A stretch of DNA of 23,925 nucleotides, taken from the IMG/VR virus record IMGVR_UViG_2654587569_000016; one strand, 5' to 3'. The notes under the pieces were generated by a model. It ran no database searches, was not told the origin of the DNA, and was given only the letters and a program-made list of their open reading frames with translations. Of this stretch, positions 1 to 7,601 are shown piece by piece. Numbering within the stretch: the stretch's first letter is position 1; every line of letters begins with the position of its first letter. The stretch comes from a virus (taxonomy: Duplodnaviria; Heunggongvirae; Uroviricota; Caudoviricetes). Position numbers and translations under genes: made by a program.

Positions 1-1314
1 CTAACCCACTGATTTTAATAAGTCTCTTGTGTCACTTTGGTGACCATGGGACATCATTGGGACATAATCTGCCAGCTTCTGATTCAGCATTGCGATCTGT
101 TCTGCATTACTGTCAGTCATCCATGCTCCGTATACATTGAACACCATCTGGGCACTTGCATGGCCCATCTGGCTGGCAATGAAGCTTGGGTTTGCTCCGG
201 CAGATAATGACCAGCACGCATAAGTGTGTCGTGACTGGTATGCTTTCCGGTGCCTGATGCCCGCACGCTTAATGGCTGTTTCCCATGAGTCGCCAATAGA
301 ATCTACCTTGTAGATAAAACCGACCTGTTTGCTTTTTCTAACCACCTGGGGGTTAAATACGAAAGTACATTCATGATTCACTGAACGCCCATATTCACGT
401 AGTTGAACCTTGATGTGGTGCTGCTTACCCAGTCTTGTCATTTCAGCCTGATTTTTCAGGACACTGATAGCGGGCTGGATAAGATGCACAACCCTGTTTG
501 TACTTGCTTCAGTTTTAGGTAGAGCGAACTCACCGAGTTTCGTATAATTGCGCCTGATAGTAATAGTTCCTGCTTTCAGATCGATATCTTCCCAGGCCAG
601 GGAGACCAGTTCACCGTGACGCATTCCTGTGTACACAGCCAATGACCACAGGTTTTTCGTCTGCTGATGTCGGCAAGCATCTATCAGGCGAATAAATTCG
701 TCACGAGTTAGCGGATCTGGCTCTGCCCTGGCTCTTTTAAGAGGCTTAATTCCCTGGAAAGGATTTGCTTCTAGGTAACCGTGATCTGCAGCAAACTGAA
801 ACATTCCAGCGATTGTCGTCATGTAATAATTTACAGTAACGACGCTCCGTCCTTTTGCTGCTGCTTTGTTTTTCGTTGAATTCTGATATCCGGTCAGCAA
901 ATCTTTCCTGATATACAGCAATTCCTCTTTAGTTACCGATGACACCAGTCTGCTGCCTCCAATTTTCGGAACCATCGTTCTTGCAACGGATTCATAGCGA
1001 TTGAATGCATTTGCAGAGATTTCCATTCGTTTCAGATCCAGCCACTTTTCTTCAAGTTCCTTCACCGTAATTTCTTTTTTACTTACCCCAAAAGCCTTGA
1101 GGTTAGGAGAGTCAGGGAACTGCGCAGCGTAATCAAAGTTTCCTGTACGAATAGCAAAACATACAGATGTCCGCAGCTCTCCGGCGATCTTCCTGTTCTT
1201 GGCAGTGTCAGGGACACCAAGATTTTCCCTGACACGTTTACCTTTAAAATTAAACCAGATGCGTAATGTGCCACCGTGGTTTTCGACGCCTGTTGGATAT
1301 TTGACTTTATCCAT
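1..1314 (-). CDS. int: Tyrosine-type site-specific integrase, complete (stop codon at 1-3)
   Basis: 437-aa ORF with tyrosine recombinase catalytic region (RHGEL, SRHTYA, C-terminal VYGAW tyrosine); sits at the prophage edge next to an excisionase-like gene. Confidence 0.9.
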   Translation of the reverse strand: MDKVKYPTGVENHGGTLRIWFNFKGKRVRENLGVPDTAKNRKIAGELRTSVCFAIRTGNFDYAAQFPDSPNLKAFGVSKKEITVKELEEKWLDLKRMEISANAFNRYESVARTMVPKIGGSRLVSSVTKEELLYIRKDLLTGYQNSTKNKAAAKGRSVVTVNYYMTTIAGMFQFAADHGYLEANPFQGIKPLKRARAEPDPLTRDEFIRLIDACRHQQTKNLWSLAVYTGMRHGELVSLAWEDIDLKAGTITIRRNYTKLGEFALPKTEASTNRVVHLIQPAISVLKNQAEMTRLGKQHHIKVQLREYGRSVNHECTFVFNPQVVRKSKQVGFIYKVDSIGDSWETAIKRAGIRHRKAYQSRHTYACWSLSAGANPSFIASQMGHASAQMVFNVYGAWMTDSNAEQIAMLNQKLADYVPMMSHGHQSDTRDLLKSVG

Positions 1315-1369
1315 TGATACCTCCAGACACCCAAGAGCGATACGAGCTTACATACTTCATGGCATTAAA

Positions 1370-1606
1370 TCACCCAGGTTGTTTGTTTTTCATTGAAGCA
1401 ACCCAGGCATCTATTGCTTTTCTGTTATACATACATTCACTGGAAGGCTTTGGATTACCGTCTGGTGATACGTGAATATACTCTCTTCCAACCATCCAGC
1501 ATTCTTTCCGGGCCCGAAGAATTGTGCCTGGTTTGAGCCCGGTAATTGCGATTAGAACGCTTTCACAAACCCATTCATTGGGAGCCAGTTGAATCACATT
1601 GCCCAT
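1370..1606 (-). CDS. xis: Excisionase, lambda Xis-like
   Basis: 78 aa; NEW...KECWMVGREYIH pattern resembles lambda Xis (EW...RECRIF...GREYLF); immediately upstream of int on the same strand. Confidence 0.6.
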   Translation of the reverse strand: MGNVIQLAPNEWVCESVLIAITGLKPGTILRARKECWMVGREYIHVSPDGNPKPSSECMYNRKAIDAWVASMKNKQPG

Positions 1607-1764
1607 GCATTACCTCACACAACACTCAGCCCACGGCAGTGGCACCACACTTCAAACATTCGTTTCACAATTTCACGACAGTAGAAACCGTCAACATCTC
1701 GTGTCAGGTCATAGCGATTGCCGTAACGCTGGTGGACCCATCGTTCAAATGCTTTATTCATTCT

Positions 1765-2007
1765 TTACTTCCTTTTCATGGCTCGTAATTTTTTCAGATG
1801 AGCTTCCTGCTCTGTTTCTGCCAGAATTTGTCGGTATTCCTGGTGATCGATCCGTTCAAACAGTTCATTAAAATCGTTTATTTTTACCGACTGTGTTCGC
1901 CCATCCATTCTTCTGTACAACACGATATTATTTATGCAGCGAATAATTTTTACCGGGTAACCGGCACTGTCGGTATACAGTTGCCCTTGATTAATCAAAG
2001 CGAACAT
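1765..2007 (-). CDS. Hypothetical protein (80 aa from internal ATG)
   Basis: ORF track extends to 2103, but the ATG at 2007 is preceded by AGGAG at a 5-6 nt spacing; no recognisable domain. Confidence 0.45.
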   Translation of the reverse strand: MFALINQGQLYTDSAGYPVKIIRCINNIVLYRRMDGRTQSVKINDFNELFERIDHQEYRQILAETEQEAHLKKLRAMKRK

Positions 2008-2038
2008 TTTTTCTCCTGTTCCCTGAGTTGTGAGAACT

Positions 2039-2398
2039 TCAGAGCCGTATGTTTGTAGCGGGTTCAATACTGATAATTTCTGCTGAGATAAGCATTCCGG
2101 CAAGCCATAGCTCTCCGATCAAGTTTTCATCCTTGCATTTCACGCCGCCGATATTAATGGTGGCGATGATATCGCGCTCATCCTCGACTTCTTCATAAGG
2201 CAGCGTTTCGTACAGGCTTTCAATAGCGCAACTGATAACATCGAGTCCGGTCAGGTTGCCACCGACAGTGACTTCGAATGTTTCGCGGTATTCCCATAGC
2301 CCGAAAATTAATCGAACGGTTTGTTTTGCCATGCGTCCGCATAACGTCAGATTTGGGTCATAGTTCATTATTTGCGGTTGAGTATTATGAGTGTTCAT
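2039..2398 (-). CDS. Hypothetical protein (119 aa)
   Basis: Clean ORF with AAGGGA upstream of the ATG; downstream of the SPFH gene in the same leftward operon; no recognisable domain. Confidence 0.5.
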   Translation of the reverse strand: MNTHNTQPQIMNYDPNLTLCGRMAKQTVRLIFGLWEYRETFEVTVGGNLTGLDVISCAIESLYETLPYEEVEDERDIIATINIGGVKCKDENLIGELWLAGMLISAEIISIEPATNIRL

Positions 2399-2438
2399 CT
2401 GCTTTTCCCTTAGCCCGGCGGCCTGCCGGGCATATAAG

Positions 2439-3266
2439 TTATTTAACCTGGATAAAGGGTGTATTGGCTCCGCTGGTCATGTATTGCGGCAGTGTGCCGT
2501 TCCATTTATTGATGGCTTCCAGCTCCATAACTCCGGGGTTCTGGCGCAGAGCTTCACCGCGTAAACGAATAGCATCGGCTTCGGCCTGGGCTTTTGTGCG
2601 AATTGCATCTGCCTGTCCGGCAGCCTCCGCACGCAACATGTTGGCTTCCGCTTCGCGCTGTTTTACTTCCTGCTCGCGTTGCAGGGTTTTCTGGTTTGCC
2701 GTGACTTTGGCGTTAATGCTGTCGATAACGGTTGGCGGGTACTCCGGTTTACCTACATAAGACAGGCTCATTACCTGAATACCGATGGGCGTCATTTCTG
2801 CCTGAATATCTTTTAGAGCTGCATCCAGTAGTTCAGATTTGCCACCGTCGATAAATTTATCAGTGGTCATTTTGCTGGCCAGCCGATTTAGTGCATCTGC
2901 TATCTTCTGGCGCAGGTCGGTGTCGGTAATGTCATCCACACCTTTGCGGTAGGTTTGAAACACCGTGGTAACTTTGGATGGATCAACCTTGTAGGCTACT
3001 CCGATGTGGTAACCAATGGTTGTTCCATCGCTCATCTGGAAACTGAATGGATCATCGTAGGTCTTCATCTGCTTAAAGGTCGGGAAGATATAAACTTCAG
3101 TGTTCCAGCCTGTCCAGTAGCGACCAACACCGACCACTTCACCGACGCCTTTGTCGTCGCCAAGTTTGTTGACTTTGATGCCCACATTACCAGGCTCAAC
3201 ACGATCACAACCGACAAGGCCAATGGCAGGCAGAACAATGGCTAAAGAAAAAATAATTTTTTTCAT
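2439..3266 (-). CDS. SPFH/band-7 (prohibitin-homology) domain lipoprotein
   Basis: 275 aa; N-terminal signal peptide with lipobox (LVGC); central band-7-like region and alanine/glutamate-rich coiled-coil tail (EAEANMLRAEAAGQADAIRTKAQAEADAIR); AAGGA RBS; ATGA overlap with the upstream gene. Confidence 0.8.
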   Translation of the reverse strand: MKKIIFSLAIVLPAIGLVGCDRVEPGNVGIKVNKLGDDKGVGEVVGVGRYWTGWNTEVYIFPTFKQMKTYDDPFSFQMSDGTTIGYHIGVAYKVDPSKVTTVFQTYRKGVDDITDTDLRQKIADALNRLASKMTTDKFIDGGKSELLDAALKDIQAEMTPIGIQVMSLSYVGKPEYPPTVIDSINAKVTANQKTLQREQEVKQREAEANMLRAEAAGQADAIRTKAQAEADAIRLRGEALRQNPGVMELEAINKWNGTLPQYMTSGANTPFIQVK

Positions 3267-3451
3267 CTTTTATCCTTAGTGAAAGAAAGCCCCTTATAAA
3301 TGGCATAAATGCATGGCGGGGTCAGAAACGCCAGTGCAAAGCCAGAAATTACCGCTACCGTATCCTTCATTGATATCAGAAACGGGACGAGTAATCCGTA
3401 AATGCATGAGATAATTGCCAGTGATATGACTATTCTGAAATAAATATTCAT
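3263..3451 (-). CDS. Small two-pass membrane protein (62 aa)
   Basis: Two hydrophobic helices (IVISLAIISCIYGLLVPFLI and VISGFALAFLTPPCIYAIY); start and stop codons overlap both neighbours as ATGA. Confidence 0.6.
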   Translation of the reverse strand: MNIYFRIVISLAIISCIYGLLVPFLISMKDTVAVISGFALAFLTPPCIYAIYKGLSFTKDKR

Positions 3452-3726
3452 GCTCCTCCTGATATCTTTCTGATTGCCTTTTTCAACTTTTTACTGTTAT
3501 TCACGCTACAGTAAATTTCGGCAATCTCACGTGATAACATTATTTCTCCACTGTTTTTATCTATAGCAACGAGACCGGGATTGTCTCGTATGAGTTTCTT
3601 TATCATTGGCATTGCCATAAACTCTTCTGGCGTATAGATGCGTGTATGGCGGCGAACGTGTTTTATCACAGGTGTTTTATGTTTTGACTCAACCTGAAAT
3701 ACATTAATTTTATTCTGATTTGACAT
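3448..3726 (-). CDS. Hypothetical protein (92 aa), first gene of the coupled SPFH triplet
   Basis: ORF whose stop overlaps the start of the membrane peptide; basic, no recognisable domain. Confidence 0.55.
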   Translation of the reverse strand: MSNQNKINVFQVESKHKTPVIKHVRRHTRIYTPEEFMAMPMIKKLIRDNPGLVAIDKNSGEIMLSREIAEIYCSVNNSKKLKKAIRKISGGA

Positions 3727-3728
3727 AT

Positions 3729-4310
3729 TTAATGTGCCACTGGTGTTTCTGGCATACCATGAGTATTCAGATCGTGAATCATTTCATCCAGAAGAAGTTC
3801 AAGCCCTTCTCGTCCCATAGCAGAGACAATGAAGCCATTATCAGGATCTGCGATGAGCATTTTTTGATAGAGAAACAGAACTCGCCCCATGCCTTCAGCT
3901 TCGCCATATTTTTCAATGAATCCCCATTCGACATGGTTTTGCAGGGCAATGCGAATTGGTTCAGGGTATATACTCATGCAACCATATTTCCCCTTATAAA
4001 TAACTGCACGATATGTAGTCCCATTATCGTTAGGGATATCAACGGTGCCGTTCCTGACTTCCTCTTCATTTATAAACGTCGTAACATACAGCCAGCGCCA
4101 TTGAGCAACTTTCATATCGACGGATAATTTTCCCAGCAATCCGGCATCATCCGCTTCAGCAAGGCACTGAAGAATTCTTAAACCGCGTGAATTTGGATAA
4201 TCATATTCACCATCATTAAGTCGCTGTACGGCCTCGGCATAATCTATGGTTGTATTGCCAATTTTTATACCGTGTGGCGTAACTTCTGGTCGGAACTCTG
4301 AATGATTCAT
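3729..4310 (-). CDS. Hypothetical protein (194 aa from internal ATG)
   Basis: ATG at 4310 preceded by AAAGGAG; ORF track offers a longer alternative to 4367; ends 2 nt from the next gene. Confidence 0.55.
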   Translation of the reverse strand: MNHSEFRPEVTPHGIKIGNTTIDYAEAVQRLNDGEYDYPNSRGLRILQCLAEADDAGLLGKLSVDMKVAQWRWLYVTTFINEEEVRNGTVDIPNDNGTTYRAVIYKGKYGCMSIYPEPIRIALQNHVEWGFIEKYGEAEGMGRVLFLYQKMLIADPDNGFIVSAMGREGLELLLDEMIHDLNTHGMPETPVAH

Positions 4311-4495
4311 AATGTTTGCTCCTTTGCTGGTGGAATAATAGTGTAACCCGCTCGTTTTACCATCCACAAAAATGTATCCGTGCAGCCAACAAATTCATTA
4401 TCCAACAGATGTTTTGAGTGAATTACCTTCCCATTTTCAATGGTCAACAACACTCTGACTTTTTCATGTGTTATGTTCTGTTCTTTTTCTTCCAT
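4307..4495 (-). CDS. Hypothetical small protein (about 62 aa)
   Basis: ATG at 4495 preceded by GGGAGA at 8 nt; stop overlaps the start of the downstream gene. Confidence 0.45.
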   Translation of the reverse strand: MEEKEQNITHEKVRVLLTIENGKVIHSKHLLDNEFVGCTDTFLWMVKRAGYTIIPPAKEQTL

Positions 4496-4695
4496 TGATT
4501 TATCTCCCATATGCTTTGCGCAAATACAGGTTGGCTATATGAAGATAAGAATCTCCATGTTGTGCAATGAGGCAGGCAGTTTTATACGATGCCTTATTTT
4601 TCAGGAAAGTCATAACTGAGTTCCATCTGTGAATAAAGGTTGTAACAATCCCCGGCGATAAAACCGTAATAAACGTTCAGGGCATATTTATTGTG

Positions 4696-5052
4696 CTAAT
4701 TATTTTCGGCAGCAGCTTTTGCATACTCACATGCAAAATTCAGAATTTCGCTGCCGAGTGTTTTCGTTTCGTGATTACTGGAAATATGTAATACCTGTGT
4801 TGCATGCAATAAATGATAAACATTTACCGCAAATGAATCAGGCTCCAGACAAATGCCTTCATAATCATCTTGTTGTGAGGTTGTTTCTGTCATTGCTCCT
4901 GAAGTGCATGCGAGCCTGTTTTTGACAATTCTCTTTCCTCTAATCACTATATCGGCAACATCTATTGCCTTTACAACCTCCGGGAGAAGTTCCTGGTTTG
5001 TATAATCAAAGTTATCAACATGGAGAACAGTTATGTTTTCGAACTTTTTCAT
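4696..5052 (-). CDS. Hypothetical protein (118 aa)
   Basis: ORF with GAGGAAG just upstream of the ATG; no recognisable domain. Confidence 0.5.
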   Translation of the reverse strand: MKKFENITVLHVDNFDYTNQELLPEVVKAIDVADIVIRGKRIVKNRLACTSGAMTETTSQQDDYEGICLEPDSFAVNVYHLLHATQVLHISSNHETKTLGSEILNFACEYAKAAAENN

Positions 5053-5180
5053 GGCTTCCTCAGCTGACTTATATGTTCTGCTATATAGCGAGTCTCAGAA
5101 GTGTTTTCATATTGAGACTGTTTCCGCAATGATTGATAAAAATGTTCGCATGTACCTTGAGGGGCGAAGCGGCGATTATG

Positions 5181-5678
5181 TCACCATTGGTATTGGTTCT
5201 TCCGTAGAAGAGCTTCGCGAGATAAGGAGCAAACTTGTTGAGATGCGTCATGGTGTTGCTGCTCCTCACTTTTTGGTTGCTCCGGAGGAGTAACCTCGCC
5301 AGTTAACAGCCACATCGGATCGCAGCCAAGAATATTTGCCAGTGGGATAAGCATACTGATAGTTGGTTCATACTCTCCGCTCTCCCACTGGATGATAATT
5401 TCTTCATCGAGATCGAGCAGCCTGGCGAGTTCGGCTGTTGTTAAGCCGCAGGCTTCGCGTTGGGTGCTAATCCGATTCTGGGAATTAATAGCTAAATTTT
5501 GTTTGCATAAACGCGACGCTGTGAGGCTATATTTTTGAGTTACAGCCAGGATGGAGCTGGCAAGTTCAATTAACTCAGGGTTATTGCTGCTATACAGTAG
5601 TGCACCAGCCCCGACTAAGAGCTGAATATTCTCAAGAGCATCGTGCTGATTTGTTGGTAACCCCATATACGATGACAT
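5181..5678 (-). CDS. HTH (XRE-like) DNA-binding protein, first gene downstream of the PL-like promoter
   Basis: About 165 aa from the ATG at 5678 (AGAGGA at 8 nt); helix-turn-helix segment TQREACGLTTAELARLLDLDEEIIIQWESGEYEPTISMLIPLANILG; N-terminal part unrecognised. Confidence 0.65.
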   Translation of the reverse strand: MSSYMGLPTNQHDALENIQLLVGAGALLYSSNNPELIELASSILAVTQKYSLTASRLCKQNLAINSQNRISTQREACGLTTAELARLLDLDEEIIIQWESGEYEPTISMLIPLANILGCDPMWLLTGEVTPPEQPKSEEQQHHDASQQVCSLSREALLRKNQYQW

Positions 5679-5727
5679 TTTTCTCATCCTCTATAATTGT
5701 TTTGGTGAGTTCGATACCTATGCCATG

Positions 5728-5756
5728 ATAATAGGTTTGCCGATTTTTCCTGTCAA
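5728..5756 (-). promoter_or_regulatory. PL-like sigma70 promoter (TTGACA, 17-nt spacer, TATTAT) reading leftward
   Basis: On the minus strand: -35 TTGACA (plus 5751-5756), 17-nt spacer, -10 TATTAT (plus 5728-5733); flanked by CCGAT/ATCGG inverted repeats. Confidence 0.5.
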
Positions 5757-5777
5757 TCGGTTTATCGATTTCTTTCC

Positions 5778-5803
5778 AAAAAAAAGCCCACTTAAGAGTG
5801 GGC
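5778..5803 (-). terminator. Intrinsic terminator downstream of cI
   Basis: Perfect 7-bp stem GCCCACT/AGTGGGC with 4-nt loop, followed on the minus strand by eight U; 19 nt after the cI stop. Confidence 0.6.
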
Positions 5804-5821
5804 GGGTTAAATGATTTTTGC

Positions 5822-6514
5822 TTATGCAAAACGGTGTAGTGTCATAGGCCAACTGACAATTACTTTTCCGTCAATGTGAAGTTGTTCAAAGTCTTCCGGT
5901 TCGATAGCCCAATCCTTGTAAGCTGGGTTGTCAGATATCACCGTTAGAGTATCTTTGATTTTTTGAAGTCTTTTGATGTGCGATGTTCCAGAGTATGTAA
6001 AGGCGTATATACCATCACCATTAAATGCGCGAACTGATACATCTACAAATACCAAGTCTTCAGGGTCTATTGTGCCTTTCATACTGTCGCCGTGGGCGTT
6101 TATTGCTTTGATTGCTGATGCTGGCCTGCCGCCAAAAACTCTTGATGCGTATCCTGGTTCTATCGCTATAGATCTGACAATGTCAGGAAAATCAGAGTTA
6201 TAACTACCAGGTCCGCAACTATATCTGATGTCTAAAACATCCACGACATACGAATCAGTAACCCAATCCTCAGAAATGTTACGTATTTGGTGTGAGTCTG
6301 CAGAGGTCACGATTTCCATTGGGCCAACACCCGATGCGAGCCATTCCGGGTTAACGCCCAAAACTTTTGCTATTTCGACTGTTTTTCTGGAACCGTTGGC
6401 TTTGTTAAGTAGTTGATTGACACTGGACTGAGCCATACCCACTTCTTTGGCCAGCCTACCTTGCGTAAATTTTGCGTTGCGCATAGCTAAATCAAGTCGT
6501 TCTGAAAATGTCAT
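5822..6514 (-). CDS. cI: CI-type prophage repressor (HTH plus LexA-like S24 peptidase domain)
   Basis: 230 aa; N-terminal HTH (QGRLAKEVGMAQSSVNQLL); C-terminal autocleavage module with GDSM serine motif and KRL lysine; divergent from a cro-like gene. Confidence 0.9.
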   Translation of the reverse strand: MTFSERLDLAMRNAKFTQGRLAKEVGMAQSSVNQLLNKANGSRKTVEIAKVLGVNPEWLASGVGPMEIVTSADSHQIRNISEDWVTDSYVVDVLDIRYSCGPGSYNSDFPDIVRSIAIEPGYASRVFGGRPASAIKAINAHGDSMKGTIDPEDLVFVDVSVRAFNGDGIYAFTYSGTSHIKRLQKIKDTLTVISDNPAYKDWAIEPEDFEQLHIDGKVIVSWPMTLHRFA

Positions 6515-6548
6515 TGCGATTTTCCTCCCCTCTCTATCTTGGCTAGTC

Positions 6549-6564
6549 TATCGGCTTTCCGATA
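6549..6564. promoter_or_regulatory. Operator-like inverted repeat TATCGG-CTTT-CCGATA
   Basis: 6-bp inverted arms in the cI/cro intergenic region; related CCGAT/ATCGG arms flank the PL -35. Confidence 0.35.
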
Positions 6565-6582
6565 AATGTTCTAGGTTTAACG

Positions 6583-6611
6583 TTGAATATCGCTTTTCCT
6601 GTTGTTATTAT
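6583..6611 (+). promoter_or_regulatory. PR-like sigma70 promoter (TTGAAT, 17-nt spacer, TATTAT)
   Basis: -35 at 6583-6588 and -10 at 6606-6611, followed by AGGAGA and the cro ATG at 6634. Confidence 0.5.
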
Positions 6612-6633
6612 GCGTTCAATAGGAGATGCGATT

Positions 6634-6897
6634 ATGAAACATAAAGCCATAGAGAAAGCTATTGAGATTCTTGGAAGTCAGCAAGCCTTAGCCAAGCGAT
6701 GCGGAAAGGCCCAGTCAACAGTCTGCGATTGGTTGAACTGCAAGAACAAGATTTCACCAGAATTTGTGCCGTTATTGGTTGCAGCTGTCGACGGAAAGAT
6801 CCAAGCGTATGAATTTCGTCCAGACCTACCAGAGCTTTTTCCACATTCAGGCTTAGCGCACACAGAGGATGACAAGCCCACAGGAGACCAACAATGA
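6634..6897 (+). CDS. cro: Cro-like small HTH regulator
   Basis: 87 aa from the ATG at 6634 (AGGAGA at 7 nt); HTH segment (SQQALAKRCGKAQSTVCDWLN); divergent from cI. Confidence 0.7.
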   Translation: MKHKAIEKAIEILGSQQALAKRCGKAQSTVCDWLNCKNKISPEFVPLLVAAVDGKIQAYEFRPDLPELFPHSGLAHTEDDKPTGDQQ

Positions 6898-7601
6898 ACA
6901 CCGCAATTTTTAACGGCAAAGCATCCATGACCAGCGTTGAGATCGCAGAGCTGGTGGGTAGCCGCCATGACAAAGTGAAACAATCCATTGAGCGCCTTGC
7001 TGAACGAAGGATTATTCAGCTTCCCCCAATGGGGATTTCTGAAAATATCAATGGGTTAGGTTTAACTCAAAAAAGTAAGCATTATCTTTTCGAAGGTGAA
7101 CGAGGCAAACGCGACAGCATCATTGTCGTCGCACAGCTTTGTCCCGAATTCACAGCCCGCCTGGTAGATCGCTGGCGCGAACTGGAAGAACAGATCCGTA
7201 AGCCAATGAGCGAAATCGAAATGGTTGCCGCGATGGCTCTTGAAGCTGTTCGTCAGCAGAAACGGATCACTCAGGTGGAAGAAAAAGTCAGCCACGTTGC
7301 CGAAACAGTTGAGCAAATCAAAAAGGGCAACATTCGTGAGGGCTATGCCGGATATCGCCAACTGAAAGCAAAAACCGGTTTGTCAGATGATAAATGCCGC
7401 AATCTGGTGAACGCCTATCAAATTCCTACAGACACCCATGAGTTCATGACGCCGGACGGATTGTTGTCACGTCGCGCAATTGTTGCTGTGGAACCGTTTA
7501 TGGCTGCTTTTTATCGGATTATGGAGGAAGCAGAACCGCGAGGGACTCGCTGGTATCACCCGAAAATGGGGTTATTTCAGGTTATTGGTTGGCAGCGGTG
7601 A
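6894..7601 (+). CDS. Rha-like phage regulatory protein
   Basis: 235 aa; N-terminal segment SVEIAELVGSRHDKVKQSIERL and following region resemble the Rha-family signature; ATGA overlap with the cro stop. Confidence 0.6.
   Translation: MNTAIFNGKASMTSVEIAELVGSRHDKVKQSIERLAERRIIQLPPMGISENINGLGLTQKSKHYLFEGERGKRDSIIVVAQLCPEFTARLVDRWRELEEQIRKPMSEIEMVAAMALEAVRQQKRITQVEEKVSHVAETVEQIKKGNIREGYAGYRQLKAKTGLSDDKCRNLVNAYQIPTDTHEFMTPDGLLSRRAIVAVEPFMAAFYRIMEEAEPRGTRWYHPKMGLFQVIGWQR

What the first reader, a model, noticed from the sequence alone, without database searches (positions are those of the whole stretch)
1765..5678. Entire leftward early operon is unrecognised cargo
Between xis and the PL-like promoter I expected lambdoid recombination, ssb, kil, cIII or N functions. 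Instead there are about ten tightly packed ORFs, none of which I can assign; several are coupled by overlapping stop/start codons, and the block looks AT-rich. This is a classic location for anti-defence and host-takeover genes, and the block is large enough to hold more than one functional unit.
Basis: inference. Interest (0 to 1): 0.6.

Follow-up and report, generated by a model that had tools for sequence, protein, structure and literature searches.

The report
Uncharacterised early-left genes of phiP27-like prophage
The stretch is the normal, tightly packed "early leftward" gene set of a phiP27-type E. coli prophage: the genes are real and mostly of unknown function, but the set was already sequenced and is common, and nothing here shows that it counters host defences.

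Summary
Window 1765-5687 carries ten to eleven real, densely packed genes (96% coding). Three pairs share ATGA stop/start overlaps, and GC is 0.435 against 0.494 elsewhere. The block lies between xis/int and a strong repressor-side promoter at 5756-5728. No ORF matches Exo, Bet, Gam, Erf, RecT, SSB, Kil, CIII or N.

It is not unrecognised in the sense of new. It is the family-typical early-left region of phiP27 (genes L03-L10, 92% identical DNA). It is 99.4% identical to a prophage at yecE in E. coli MS8345, and parts occur in 941 of 5426 complete E. coli genomes.

Four ORFs fall in named families:
- DUF4222, the family of the regulator RgdR
- DUF5406
- an SPFH/Band-7 inner-membrane lipoprotein with a coupled two-helix partner
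- an XRE-type HTH protein

The block is not one operon, because ORF I (5033-5293) is a real gene on the opposite strand. Modules differ in distribution. ORF E and the ORF I slot are variable. The H/I/J trio next to the repressor gene recurs in Salmonella and Citrobacter prophages.

Confident AlphaFold2 models of the 193-aa ORF F and of DUF5406 match no solved fold. Anti-defence or host-takeover roles remain untested. The finding is ordinary, with a few leads worth following.

The parts
5728..5756 (-). PL-like sigma-70 promoter (TTGACA-17-TATTAT). Operator-like palindromes lie at 5756-5769 and 5731-5744.
   Evidence: 11 of 12 match; the exact palindrome is found only here and at 6550-6563 next to cro
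5786..5803 (-). Terminator-like hairpin plus T-run that ends the repressor (cI) transcript upstream of PL.
   Evidence: sequence
5181..5687 (-). ORF J, the first gene after PL. It has a variable N-terminal helical domain and an XRE/HTH_3 domain. Its last ~37 codons (5181-5293) run antisense through ORF I and are not constrained in J's own frame.
   Evidence: Pfam HTH_3 1.5e-10; phrog_4739 and phrog_4836 'CII-like regulator'; alignment; substitutions J core 16/10/59 against tail 24/9/11
5033..5293 (+). ORF I, an 86-aa gene on the opposite strand (phrog_6104 family). It lies in a variable slot: absent in STEC313, and replaced beyond its first ~36 codons in phiP27 and E423. It is not annotated by PGAP.
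   Evidence: (13/9/32 against ASU11)
4696..5052 (-). ORF H, 118 aa. The N-terminal ~50-aa domain is conserved to Salmonella and Citrobacter. The C-terminal ~60 aa resembles the N-terminal domain of J. Its start overlaps the start of I by 20 bp, divergently.
   Evidence: phrog_5451 4.6e-79; phrog_4587 hits both H and J; BLASTP E 0.003; hhalign E 2e-4, probability 47%; alignment
4500..4613 (-). Possible 37-aa ORF in the G-H gap.
   Evidence: annotated in PhiR49_2; substitutions 12/5/24; no family hit
4307..4495 (-). ORF G, 62 aa (phrog_340, unknown function). It is coupled to F by an ATGA overlap.
3729..4310 (-). ORF F, 193 aa, acidic (pI 4.9), phrog_1515. The named homologues are all Escherichia. 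The alpha/beta model is confident and matches no known fold.
3448..3726 (-). ORF E, 92 aa, basic (pI 10.1). No family hit in any library. It is a rare insertion, found in 14 of 5426 E. coli genomes.
3263..3451 (-). ORF D, a 62-aa protein with two predicted transmembrane helices (phrog_1130). It is translationally coupled to C.
   Evidence: the same membrane-protein/SPFH overlapping pair occurs in the P2-like phage P88
2439..3266 (-). ORF C, a 275-aa SPFH/Band-7 lipoprotein. It has the lipobox LVGC with Asp at +2, which predicts inner-membrane retention. It is under strong purifying selection.
   Evidence: Pfam Band_7 1.1e-30; phrog_200 1.8e-114; substitutions 10/5/120; 731 phage records by tblastn
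2039..2398 (-). ORF B, a 119-aa acidic (pI 4.35) DUF5406 protein.
1765..2007 (-). ORF A, an 80-aa basic DUF4222 protein (the family of RgdR). It starts at the ATG at 2007, not at the upstream TTG.
   Evidence: Pfam 2e-15; phrog_285 7e-33 from residue 33; PGAP call; PMC10877973
1615..1761 (-). 48-aa ORF (phrog_3871) between A and xis.

Best explanation
This is the ordinary early-left (PL) region of a phiP27-type temperate phage integrated at yecE in E. coli.

How it most likely works. When the LexA-like CI repressor is inactivated, a strong sigma-70 promoter at 5756-5728 is freed. Two CI-operator-like palindromes overlap this promoter. It most likely drives one leftward transcript of about 4.4 kb through J, H, (37 aa), G, F, E, D, C, B, A and the 48-aa ORF, and on into xis and int. 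The transcript appears to have no N-type antiterminator and no internal terminator. Several genes are translationally coupled.

The phage family simply lacks lambda-style Exo/Bet/Gam, SSB, Kil, CIII and N in this region.

The block is a mosaic of units that are inherited separately:
1. A trio beside the immunity region: J (an XRE regulator), I (a small protein on the opposite strand, convergent with J) and H (a paralogue of J's N-terminal domain without an HTH). This is most likely a regulatory unit.
2. The Escherichia-restricted pair G-F.
3. The rare insert E.
4. The membrane pair D-C. C is an inner-membrane SPFH lipoprotein facing the periplasm and D is a two-helix partner. This pair is a mobile unit also found in P2-like phages. 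The SPFH gene alone is found in P1-like and many lytic phages.
5. The int-proximal small genes B (DUF5406), A (DUF4222) and the 48-aa ORF.

Shown here: gene reality, synteny, family assignments, the promoter and operator motifs, the variable slots, and the absence of standard functions.

Inferred: co-transcription, regulation by CI, and every biochemical role.
For: Identity and synteny. The DNA is 92.5% identical to phiP27 L02-L10. It is 99.4% identical to the MS8345 prophage, which is flanked by yecE, yecN and cmoA. The same gene order occurs behind different integrases and different repressors.

Transcription signals. Promoter, operators and lack of - strand terminators.

Coding reality..

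Families..

Absence of recombination, N, CIII, Kil and SSB families.. The rest of the window holds replication, Q, methylase, lysis and terminase genes but no recombinase among the ten large ORFs scanned.

Module-specific distributions. Any part 941 genomes, I slot 218, F-G 81, E 14.

H/I/J trio. It recurs in Salmonella and Citrobacter prophages whose other early-left genes differ.

D-C pair. Also present in P88.
Against: No expression data were available. Co-transcription from PL and control by CI rest on consensus scans, whose totals are no higher than in shuffled sequence.

ORF I interrupts the leftward unit, so convergent transcription could attenuate read-through past J.

The H-J domain paralogy is only moderately supported (hhalign probability 47%).

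Distant ORF I relatives sit after DnaB helicase genes, not next to XRE genes. That weakens the idea that I and J work together.

I could not test any function of A-H.
Confidence: 0.75

Rival explanations
1. Anti-defence or host-takeover island. Several of the small, often acidic proteins (B, F, H, G, E) would be inhibitors of host immunity or of host machinery, made immediately after infection or induction.
For: Position in the early-left operon. Acidic pI of B (4.35), F (4.86) and H (5.07). Confident but unmatched folds for F and B. Patchy distribution of E and F-G. B occupies the same int-proximal position in distant proteobacterial prophages.
Against: No hit to any anti-restriction or anti-defence family in PHROGs or Pfam. 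Most of the block is conserved and syntenic rather than hypervariable. No functional data exist.
Confidence: 0.25
2. Prophage-expressed protection genes (morons). The D-C membrane pair, or the opposite-strand ORF I, or both, would be made in the lysogen and exclude or abort superinfecting phages.
For: The SPFH lipoprotein gene moves between unrelated phage types: lambdoid, P2-like P88 and P1-like plasmids, with 242 of the matched places on plasmids. ORF I lies on the strand opposite to the early operon, in a slot that is empty or differently filled in relatives. This arrangement is typical of independently expressed morons.
Against: No PADLOC defence model matches C, D or I. No convincing own promoter or terminator was found for either unit. 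SPFH homologues are also common in strictly lytic phages such as Staphylococcus Kayvirus MbpS and phiCbK, which argues for a role in the infection cycle. D-C overlaps the upstream gene E, as expected for operon members.
Confidence: 0.2
3. Lysis-lysogeny control set. J would act like CII (as some depositors label it). The SPFH lipoprotein would act like or upon HflKC to modulate FtsH and so the stability of the regulator. I mRNA would act as an antisense brake on J, as OOP RNA does on lambda cII.
For: J matches phrog_4836 'CII-like regulator' (3e-50), and no cII-like gene follows cro. C has weak HflC and HflK similarity (E 1e-5 and 6e-5, far below cut-off). Like HflKC, C is predicted to face the periplasm from the inner membrane (by sequence). 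I and J overlap convergently by about 100-118 nt in three genera.
Against: The 'CII-like' label is an annotation, not a test. J has no hit to Pfam Phage_CII. The HflK/C scores are far below NCBIfam cut-offs (24.6 against 134 bits). ORF I is missing or replaced in close relatives that are functional phages, for example phiP27.
Confidence: 0.2
4. Some of the ORFs are chance reading frames or decayed remnants of a defective prophage.
For: E and G show weak third-position bias (0.47 and 0.45). Frameshifted F variants exist in databases. J's C-terminal tail is unconstrained.
Against: Most ORFs show clear coding signatures, conserved lengths across genera and plausible ribosome-binding sites. The same genes are present in inducible phages: phiP27, and ASU11, which was obtained by mitomycin C induction.
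Confidence: 0.05

Closest known systems
Enterobacteria phage phiP27 (NC_003356) early-left genes L03-L10
   Same: Same order: int, xis, DUF4222, DUF5406, SPFH lipoprotein, F, G, H, HTH gene, repressor. The DNA is 92.5% identical over 70% of the stretch, and the integrase arrangement matches.
   Different: phiP27 lacks ORF E. It has other DNA in the ORF I slot and keeps only the first 36 codons of I. It has a different repressor and operator set. phiP27 also does not annotate the 62-aa D gene.
Lambda PL operon (N, cIII, kil, gam, bet, exo, ea genes, xis, int)
   Same: Position and orientation. A repressor-controlled promoter next to cI reads leftward into xis-int. The genes are small and densely packed, and several are probably non-essential.
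   Different: No N or nutL, CIII, Kil, Gam, Bet, Exo or SSB homologue was found. The first gene is an XRE regulator. One gene lies on the opposite strand.
HflK/HflC and other bacterial SPFH (Band-7) membrane scaffolds
   Same: C has a full-length Band_7 domain (PF01145, 107.5 bits) followed by a charged Ala/Glu/Arg/Gln-rich helical tail. It is predicted to sit on the periplasmic face of the inner membrane, as HflKC does.
   Different: C is anchored by a lipid (lipobox) rather than a transmembrane helix. Its scores are far below the HflK/HflC equivalog cut-offs. Its partner is a 62-aa two-helix protein with no NfeD match. No link to FtsH was tested.
RgdR (ECs1581) of EHEC O157 prophage CP-933C, a DUF4222 regulator of the LEE and of motility
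   Same: A carries the DUF4222 domain (56.5 bits against a 27-bit cut-off). It is small, basic and prophage-encoded.
   Different: A is 80 aa, not 99, and lacks the RGD tripeptide that is needed for T3S activation in RgdR (seen in the sequence; PMC3378721). I did not align A directly to RgdR.
Lambda OOP/cII antisense arrangement
   Same: A convergent transcript (ORF I) overlaps the 3' end of a regulator gene (J) by about 100 nt, and this overlap is conserved in three genera.
   Different: The convergent transcript here encodes a conserved protein. No promoter or RNA has been shown. This is an analogy only.

Membership tests
Lambdoid early-left (PL) operon | Strong promoter next to the repressor gene that reads away from it towards xis/int | tested here: met
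   TTGACA-17-TATTAT at 5756-5728 on the - strand, after the cI terminator-like hairpin. xis (phrog_539) and int lie downstream.
Lambdoid early-left (PL) operon | Repressor operators shared between PL and PR | tested here: inconclusive
   Exact ATCGnnTTnnCGAT only at 5756-5769 and 6550-6563. With 1-mismatch sites there are 5 matches in the window against 1.9 expected (4 of 100 shuffles reach 5). No binding data.
Lambdoid early-left (PL) operon | N-type antiterminator as first gene | tested here: not met
   The first gene, J, is an HTH_3 protein. No ORF hits an N family in Pfam or PHROGs.
Lambdoid early-left (PL) operon | Recombination, SSB, Kil or CIII genes (Exo/Bet/Gam, Erf/RecT, SSB, Kil, CIII) | tested here: not met
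   No such family at E<=0.1 (Pfam, NCBIfam) or E<=0.01 (PHROGs) for any of the ten ORFs.
SPFH / Band-7 (PF01145) | Band_7 domain above Pfam's gathering score | tested here: met
   ORF C scores 107.5 bits against a 23.6-bit cut-off, residues 22-208.
HflK/HflC FtsH modulators | Score above the NCBIfam equivalog cut-off | tested here: not met
   24.6 bits against 134.4 (HflC) and 22.7 against 159.4 (HflK).
SPFH-NfeD operon pair | Adjacent NfeD-family membrane partner | tested here: not met
   The partner D (62 aa, two predicted helices) has no Pfam hit. It is only a 'membrane protein', phrog_1130.
DUF4222 / RgdR family | DUF4222 domain | tested here: met
   ORF A scores 56.5 bits against a 27-bit cut-off. 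The assignment of RgdR to DUF4222 is from PMC10877973.
DUF4222 / RgdR family | RGD motif required for T3S activation | tested here: not met
   There is no RGD tripeptide in the ORF A translation. The requirement is described in PMC3378721.
DUF5406 (PF17400) | Full-length match above the gathering score | tested here: met
   ORF B scores 78.8 bits against 25, profile positions 1-116 of 116.
XRE / Cro-CI HTH regulators | HTH_3 domain | tested here: met
   ORF J scores 41.3 bits against 23.
Lambda CII family / DicA subfamily | Match to Phage_CII (Pfam), or DicA above cut-off | tested here: not met
   No Phage_CII hit. DicA scores 45.3 bits against a 101-bit cut-off. 'CII-like' is only the label of phrog_4836.
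Known anti-phage defence systems (PADLOC-DB 2.0) | Match of any ORF to a defence-system protein model | tested here: not met
   The only significant hits are of J's generic HTH to RmrA, capH and HTH_VI; ORF I has one marginal hit (Cas11a, E 0.04). Nothing for A-H.
Known anti-defence proteins (Ocr, ArdA, Ral, Gam and others) | Sequence or fold similarity to a characterised inhibitor | tested here: inconclusive
   No PHROGs or Pfam hit. F and B models match nothing in the PDB, and F matches nothing in BFVD. The other ORFs were not modelled, and no dedicated anti-defence library was available.

The most novel reading that the evidence does not exclude
The block may hide one or more functions that have not been described.

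(a) The H/I/J cassette beside the immunity region could be a new kind of regulatory switch. It would consist of an XRE regulator, a decoy paralogue of the regulator's N-terminal domain, and a convergent, overlapping gene of the widespread but uncharacterised phrog_6104 family. That family has 368 representative clusters, and one member is fused to an HTH domain.

(b) The orphan-fold proteins F and DUF5406 could be inhibitors of host immunity or of host machinery.
Probability: 0.25. Interest if true: 0.6.

Novelty: new member of a known kind. Interest (0 to 1): 0.3.

Why it matters
phiP27-type prophages include Stx2e, Stx2a and Stx2d converting phages, and parts of this block occur in about one in six complete E. 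coli genomes. Even so, no gene in the block has a tested function.

Knowing what the regulator trio, the SPFH membrane pair and the orphan-fold proteins do would help explain how these toxin-carrying phages decide between dormancy and induction, and how they deal with the host.

In practical terms, the work shows that RefSeq annotation omits one conserved gene (ORF I) and truncates another (H).

As a discovery, the finding itself is modest. It restates that a known phage family has an uncharacterised early region.

Tried and rejected
- Sequence search of the PDB with A, B (single sequence and profile), C, E, F, H and the I profile: nothing at E<0.1.
- Is DUF5406 functionally tied to the SPFH gene? 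Rejected. In Stutzerimonas and Serratia prophages it occurs without any SPFH neighbour.
- Is ORF I always paired with an XRE gene? Not supported for distant relatives, which follow a DnaB-like helicase gene. Only one fusion to HTH_3 was seen among ten hits scanned.
- Own promoter for ORF I. The perfect TATAAT at 5001-5006 is not conserved in the Salmonella and Citrobacter loci. The conserved TTGACA at 4923 is explained by H's conserved 'VKN' codons.
- Attempts to fetch distant ORF I loci from viral contigs, using a diverse alignment or single distant proteins, failed.
- Rfam scan of 1300-7000: only a sub-threshold chance hit on the cI terminator.
- Literature searches found no experimental work on phage SPFH lipoproteins, DUF5406, phrog_1515 or the phiP27 early-left genes.

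Full report
**What is there**

The window starts with a tyrosine integrase (1-1314, - strand) and an excisionase (1370-1606, phrog_539). A LexA-like CI repressor gene lies at 5822-6514 (-) and a cro-like gene at 6583-6897 (+).

Between them lies a run of short ORFs. I name them as follows, all on the - strand unless marked:
- a 48-aa ORF, 1615-1761
- A, 1765-2007
- B, 2039-2398
- C, 2439-3266
- D, 3263-3451
- E, 3448-3726
- F, 3729-4310
- G, 4307-4495
- a possible 37-aa ORF, 4500-4613
- H, 4696-5052
- I, 5033-5293, on the + strand
- J, 5181-5687

Coding density is 96%. Three junctions (D/C, E/D, G/F) are ATGA overlaps, which I checked base by base.

GC is 0.435 in the block against 0.494 outside it. 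The low GC lies in 3267-5052 (0.396). The B-C part is 0.486.

**Are the ORFs real?**

I aligned the block to eight related loci and counted substitutions by codon position. Third positions dominate for most ORFs:
- C 10/5/120
- F 57/41/145
- J core 16/10/59
- A 25/21/62
- D 3/5/14
- the 48-aa ORF 8/6/22
- the 37-aa ORF 12/5/24
- I 16/10/37

E (9/8/15, few loci) and G (32/19/41) are less clear.

For the stretch where I and J overlap, the pattern fits I's frame and not J's. The J tail gives 24/9/11 in its own frame. Against phage ASU11 alone, I's frame gives 13/9/32. ORF I is therefore a real gene on the opposite strand. J's last ~37 codons are read-through into its antisense.

Homologues of I with 64-97% identity and lengths of 82-88 aa exist in Escherichia, Salmonella and Citrobacter.

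**Transcription signals**

The best sigma-70 match in 1300-7000 is on the - strand at 5756-5728 (TTGACA-17-TATTAT, 11 of 12). It lies directly after a hairpin plus T-run that ends cI (5803-5786).

The palindrome ATCGnnTTnnCGAT occurs exactly only twice in the 23.9-kb window. One copy is at 5756-5769, overlapping the -35 hexamer. The other is at 6550-6563, between cI and cro. A 1-mismatch copy at 5731-5744 overlaps the -10 hexamer.

No convincing - strand terminator lies between this promoter and xis/int.

This fits a CI-repressed PL that reads through the block into xis-int. That remains an inference from consensus scans.

**Identity of the element**

The block is 92.5% identical to phage phiP27 across its genes L02-L10, which were deposited as 'unknown'.

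It is 99.4% identical to a prophage in E. coli MS8345 that sits next to yecE (DUF72), yecN and cmoA.

The same gene order is found behind other integrases (strains 'numer 3' and E423), other repressors (EC12, PhiR49_2), and in ASU11 and Stx2a/Stx2d-converting phages.

So this is the family-typical early-left region, not strain-specific cargo.

The rest of the window carries Rha/Roi-like and ash genes, replication genes (HTH_36/DnaD-like, DnaC-like, DnaB), Q, a DNA methylase, lysis genes and terminase. None of the ten large ORFs I scanned is a recombinase.

**Profile searches**

Pfam, PHROGs, NCBIfam and PADLOC gave the following.

| ORF | Result |
|---|---|
| A | DUF4222 (56.5 bits), phrog_285 |
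| B | DUF5406 (78.8 bits), phrog_3409 |
| C | Band_7/SPFH (107.5 bits), phrog_200 'lipoprotein'; only weak, sub-threshold HflC/HflK similarity |
| D | phrog_1130 'membrane protein' |
| E | nothing in any library |
| F | phrog_1515, unknown function |
| G | phrog_340, unknown function |
| H | phrog_5451, unknown function |
| I | phrog_6104, unknown function |
| J | HTH_3 (41.3 bits), phrog_4739, and phrog_4836 labelled 'CII-like regulator' |

No ORF matched Exo, Bet, Gam, Erf, RecT, SSB, Kil, CIII or N. Apart from a marginal hit of ORF I (Cas11a, E 0.04), the only PADLOC hits were of J's generic HTH.

The claim that none can be assigned does not.

**What the named families tell us**

DUF4222 is the family of RgdR, a small prophage regulator in EHEC O157. 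RgdR activates LEE1 and represses motility, and it needs an RGD tripeptide for the LEE effect (PMC10877973; PMC3378721). ORF A has the domain but no RGD.

C begins with the lipobox LVGC followed by Asp. By the established +2 rule this predicts a lipoprotein retained in the inner membrane, with its SPFH domain in the periplasm. That is the same side as HflKC.

C is under strong purifying selection. It is translationally coupled to the two-helix protein D. The same membrane-protein/SPFH overlapping pair is present in the P2-like phage P88. The SPFH gene alone sits in P1-like plasmids.

By tblastn, relatives of C occur in 731 phage records. These include lytic Staphylococcus, Caulobacter, Erwinia and Pseudomonas phages.

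I found no experimental study of a phage SPFH protein. One paper only speculates about an HflC-like role (PMC10269572).

**Structure prediction on two unknowns**

In Stutzerimonas, DUF5406 sits just upstream of the prophage integrase. In Serratia, it sits within a long run of early genes. Neither locus has an SPFH gene nearby. It is therefore an independent, widespread early gene.

Both proteins are acidic. They remain unassigned.

**Which parts vary**

- ORF E is an insertion present in only 14 of 5426 complete E. coli genomes.
- The ORF I slot (about 5054-5298) is occupied in 218 genomes. It is deleted in STEC313 and filled with other DNA in phiP27 and E423.
- F-G occurs in 81 genomes.
- Some part of the block, mostly the SPFH core, occurs in 941 genomes.

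The block is thus a mosaic of units with separate histories.

**The H/I/J trio**

In Salmonella (L011, L012) and Citrobacter (L013) prophages the trio lies in the same arrangement. These prophages have different repressors. Where the leftward flank was recovered (L011, L013), the other early-left genes also differ.

The arrangement is a 121-aa H-like gene (L012 is cut off before it), an 88-aa I-like gene whose start overlaps H's start divergently by 20 bp, and an XRE gene that converges on I with a 100-118 nt overlap.

H is conserved over its full 118-123 aa. PGAP's 66-68 aa calls are therefore truncations. PGAP also does not call I at all.

H's C-terminal ~60 residues resemble J's N-terminal domain. 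The evidence is:
- phrog_4587 hits both
- BLASTP E 0.003
- hhalign E 2e-4, but probability only 47%

A profile search of 1.84 billion representative proteins found 368 relatives of I at E<=1e-3. Most are 60-110 aa. None of the nine stand-alone hits I scanned has a Pfam family, and nine of the ten scanned also matched phrog_6104. The tenth, P0183, has an I-like domain fused to a C-terminal HTH_3 domain.

Distant members in three high-GC viral contigs instead follow a DnaB-like helicase gene. The link between I and XRE regulators is therefore not general.

My reading, as inference, is that J, H and I form a regulatory unit at the edge of the immunity region.

**Verdict**

The standard lambdoid functions are truly absent and most genes are of unknown function. 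However, the block is a known, conserved feature of a known phage family. It contains recognisable regulator and membrane-scaffold genes, and it is not a single operon. There is no evidence for or against anti-defence roles.

I rate it a new member of a known kind, with modest interest.

The most useful by-products are:
- the unannotated ORF I
- the truncated annotation of H
- the conserved H/I/J arrangement
- two confident models without known fold relatives

Noticed in passing
window 12200-14000 (gene 12688-13875, - strand): A second AT-rich island (GC 0.41) lies just downstream of the Q antiterminator gene (12155-12520). It holds a 395-aa reverse-strand gene with an N-terminal DUF4236 domain (phrog_17982). 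From memory, this is the slot where phiP27 carries stx2e; I did not check that here. It is a likely moron.
   Followed up: partly
window 5033-5293 (+) and 4696-5052 (-): RefSeq/PGAP annotation of related E. coli prophages omits ORF I altogether. It calls H as a 66-68 aa stub, although the 118-123 aa form is conserved to Salmonella and Citrobacter.
   Followed up: yes
L009 4235-4948 (ASU11) and L016 9961-10689 (Stx2a phage Stx2_14040): The J homologues in these phages are 237-242 aa. In ASU11 the protein carries two tandem HTH units and is labelled 'putative CII repressor'. I did not inspect the Stx2_14040 sequence.
   Followed up: partly
L097 1949-2185, L098 4681-4899, L099 9697-10041: Distant relatives of ORF I (phrog_6104 family) in high-GC viral contigs sit immediately after, and overlap the end of, a DnaB-like replicative helicase gene on the same strand.
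   Followed up: partly
window 4500-4613 (-): A 37-aa ORF in the 185-bp gap between G and H shows third-position-biased substitutions (12/5/24). It is annotated in phage PhiR49_2 and has no family hit.
   Followed up: partly
window 4900-5052: The 5' third of H, which also holds the region upstream of and the start of ORF I, is unusually invariant at the DNA level: 14 substitutions in 153 nt across about 7 loci, with no third-position bias. This suggests overlapping constraints.
   Followed up: no
window 14563-15621 (+): An N6/N4 DNA methylase gene (PF01555) lies between the Q region and the lysis genes. It could be a phage self-protection function against restriction.
   Followed up: no
L015 (P1-like phage RCS47) 2467-3294: The SPFH lipoprotein gene lies in the tRNA/plp/upl/ban region of P1-like plasmid prophages. 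An unannotated 410-bp gap lies upstream of it, so the gene moves between very different phage types.
   Followed up: partly
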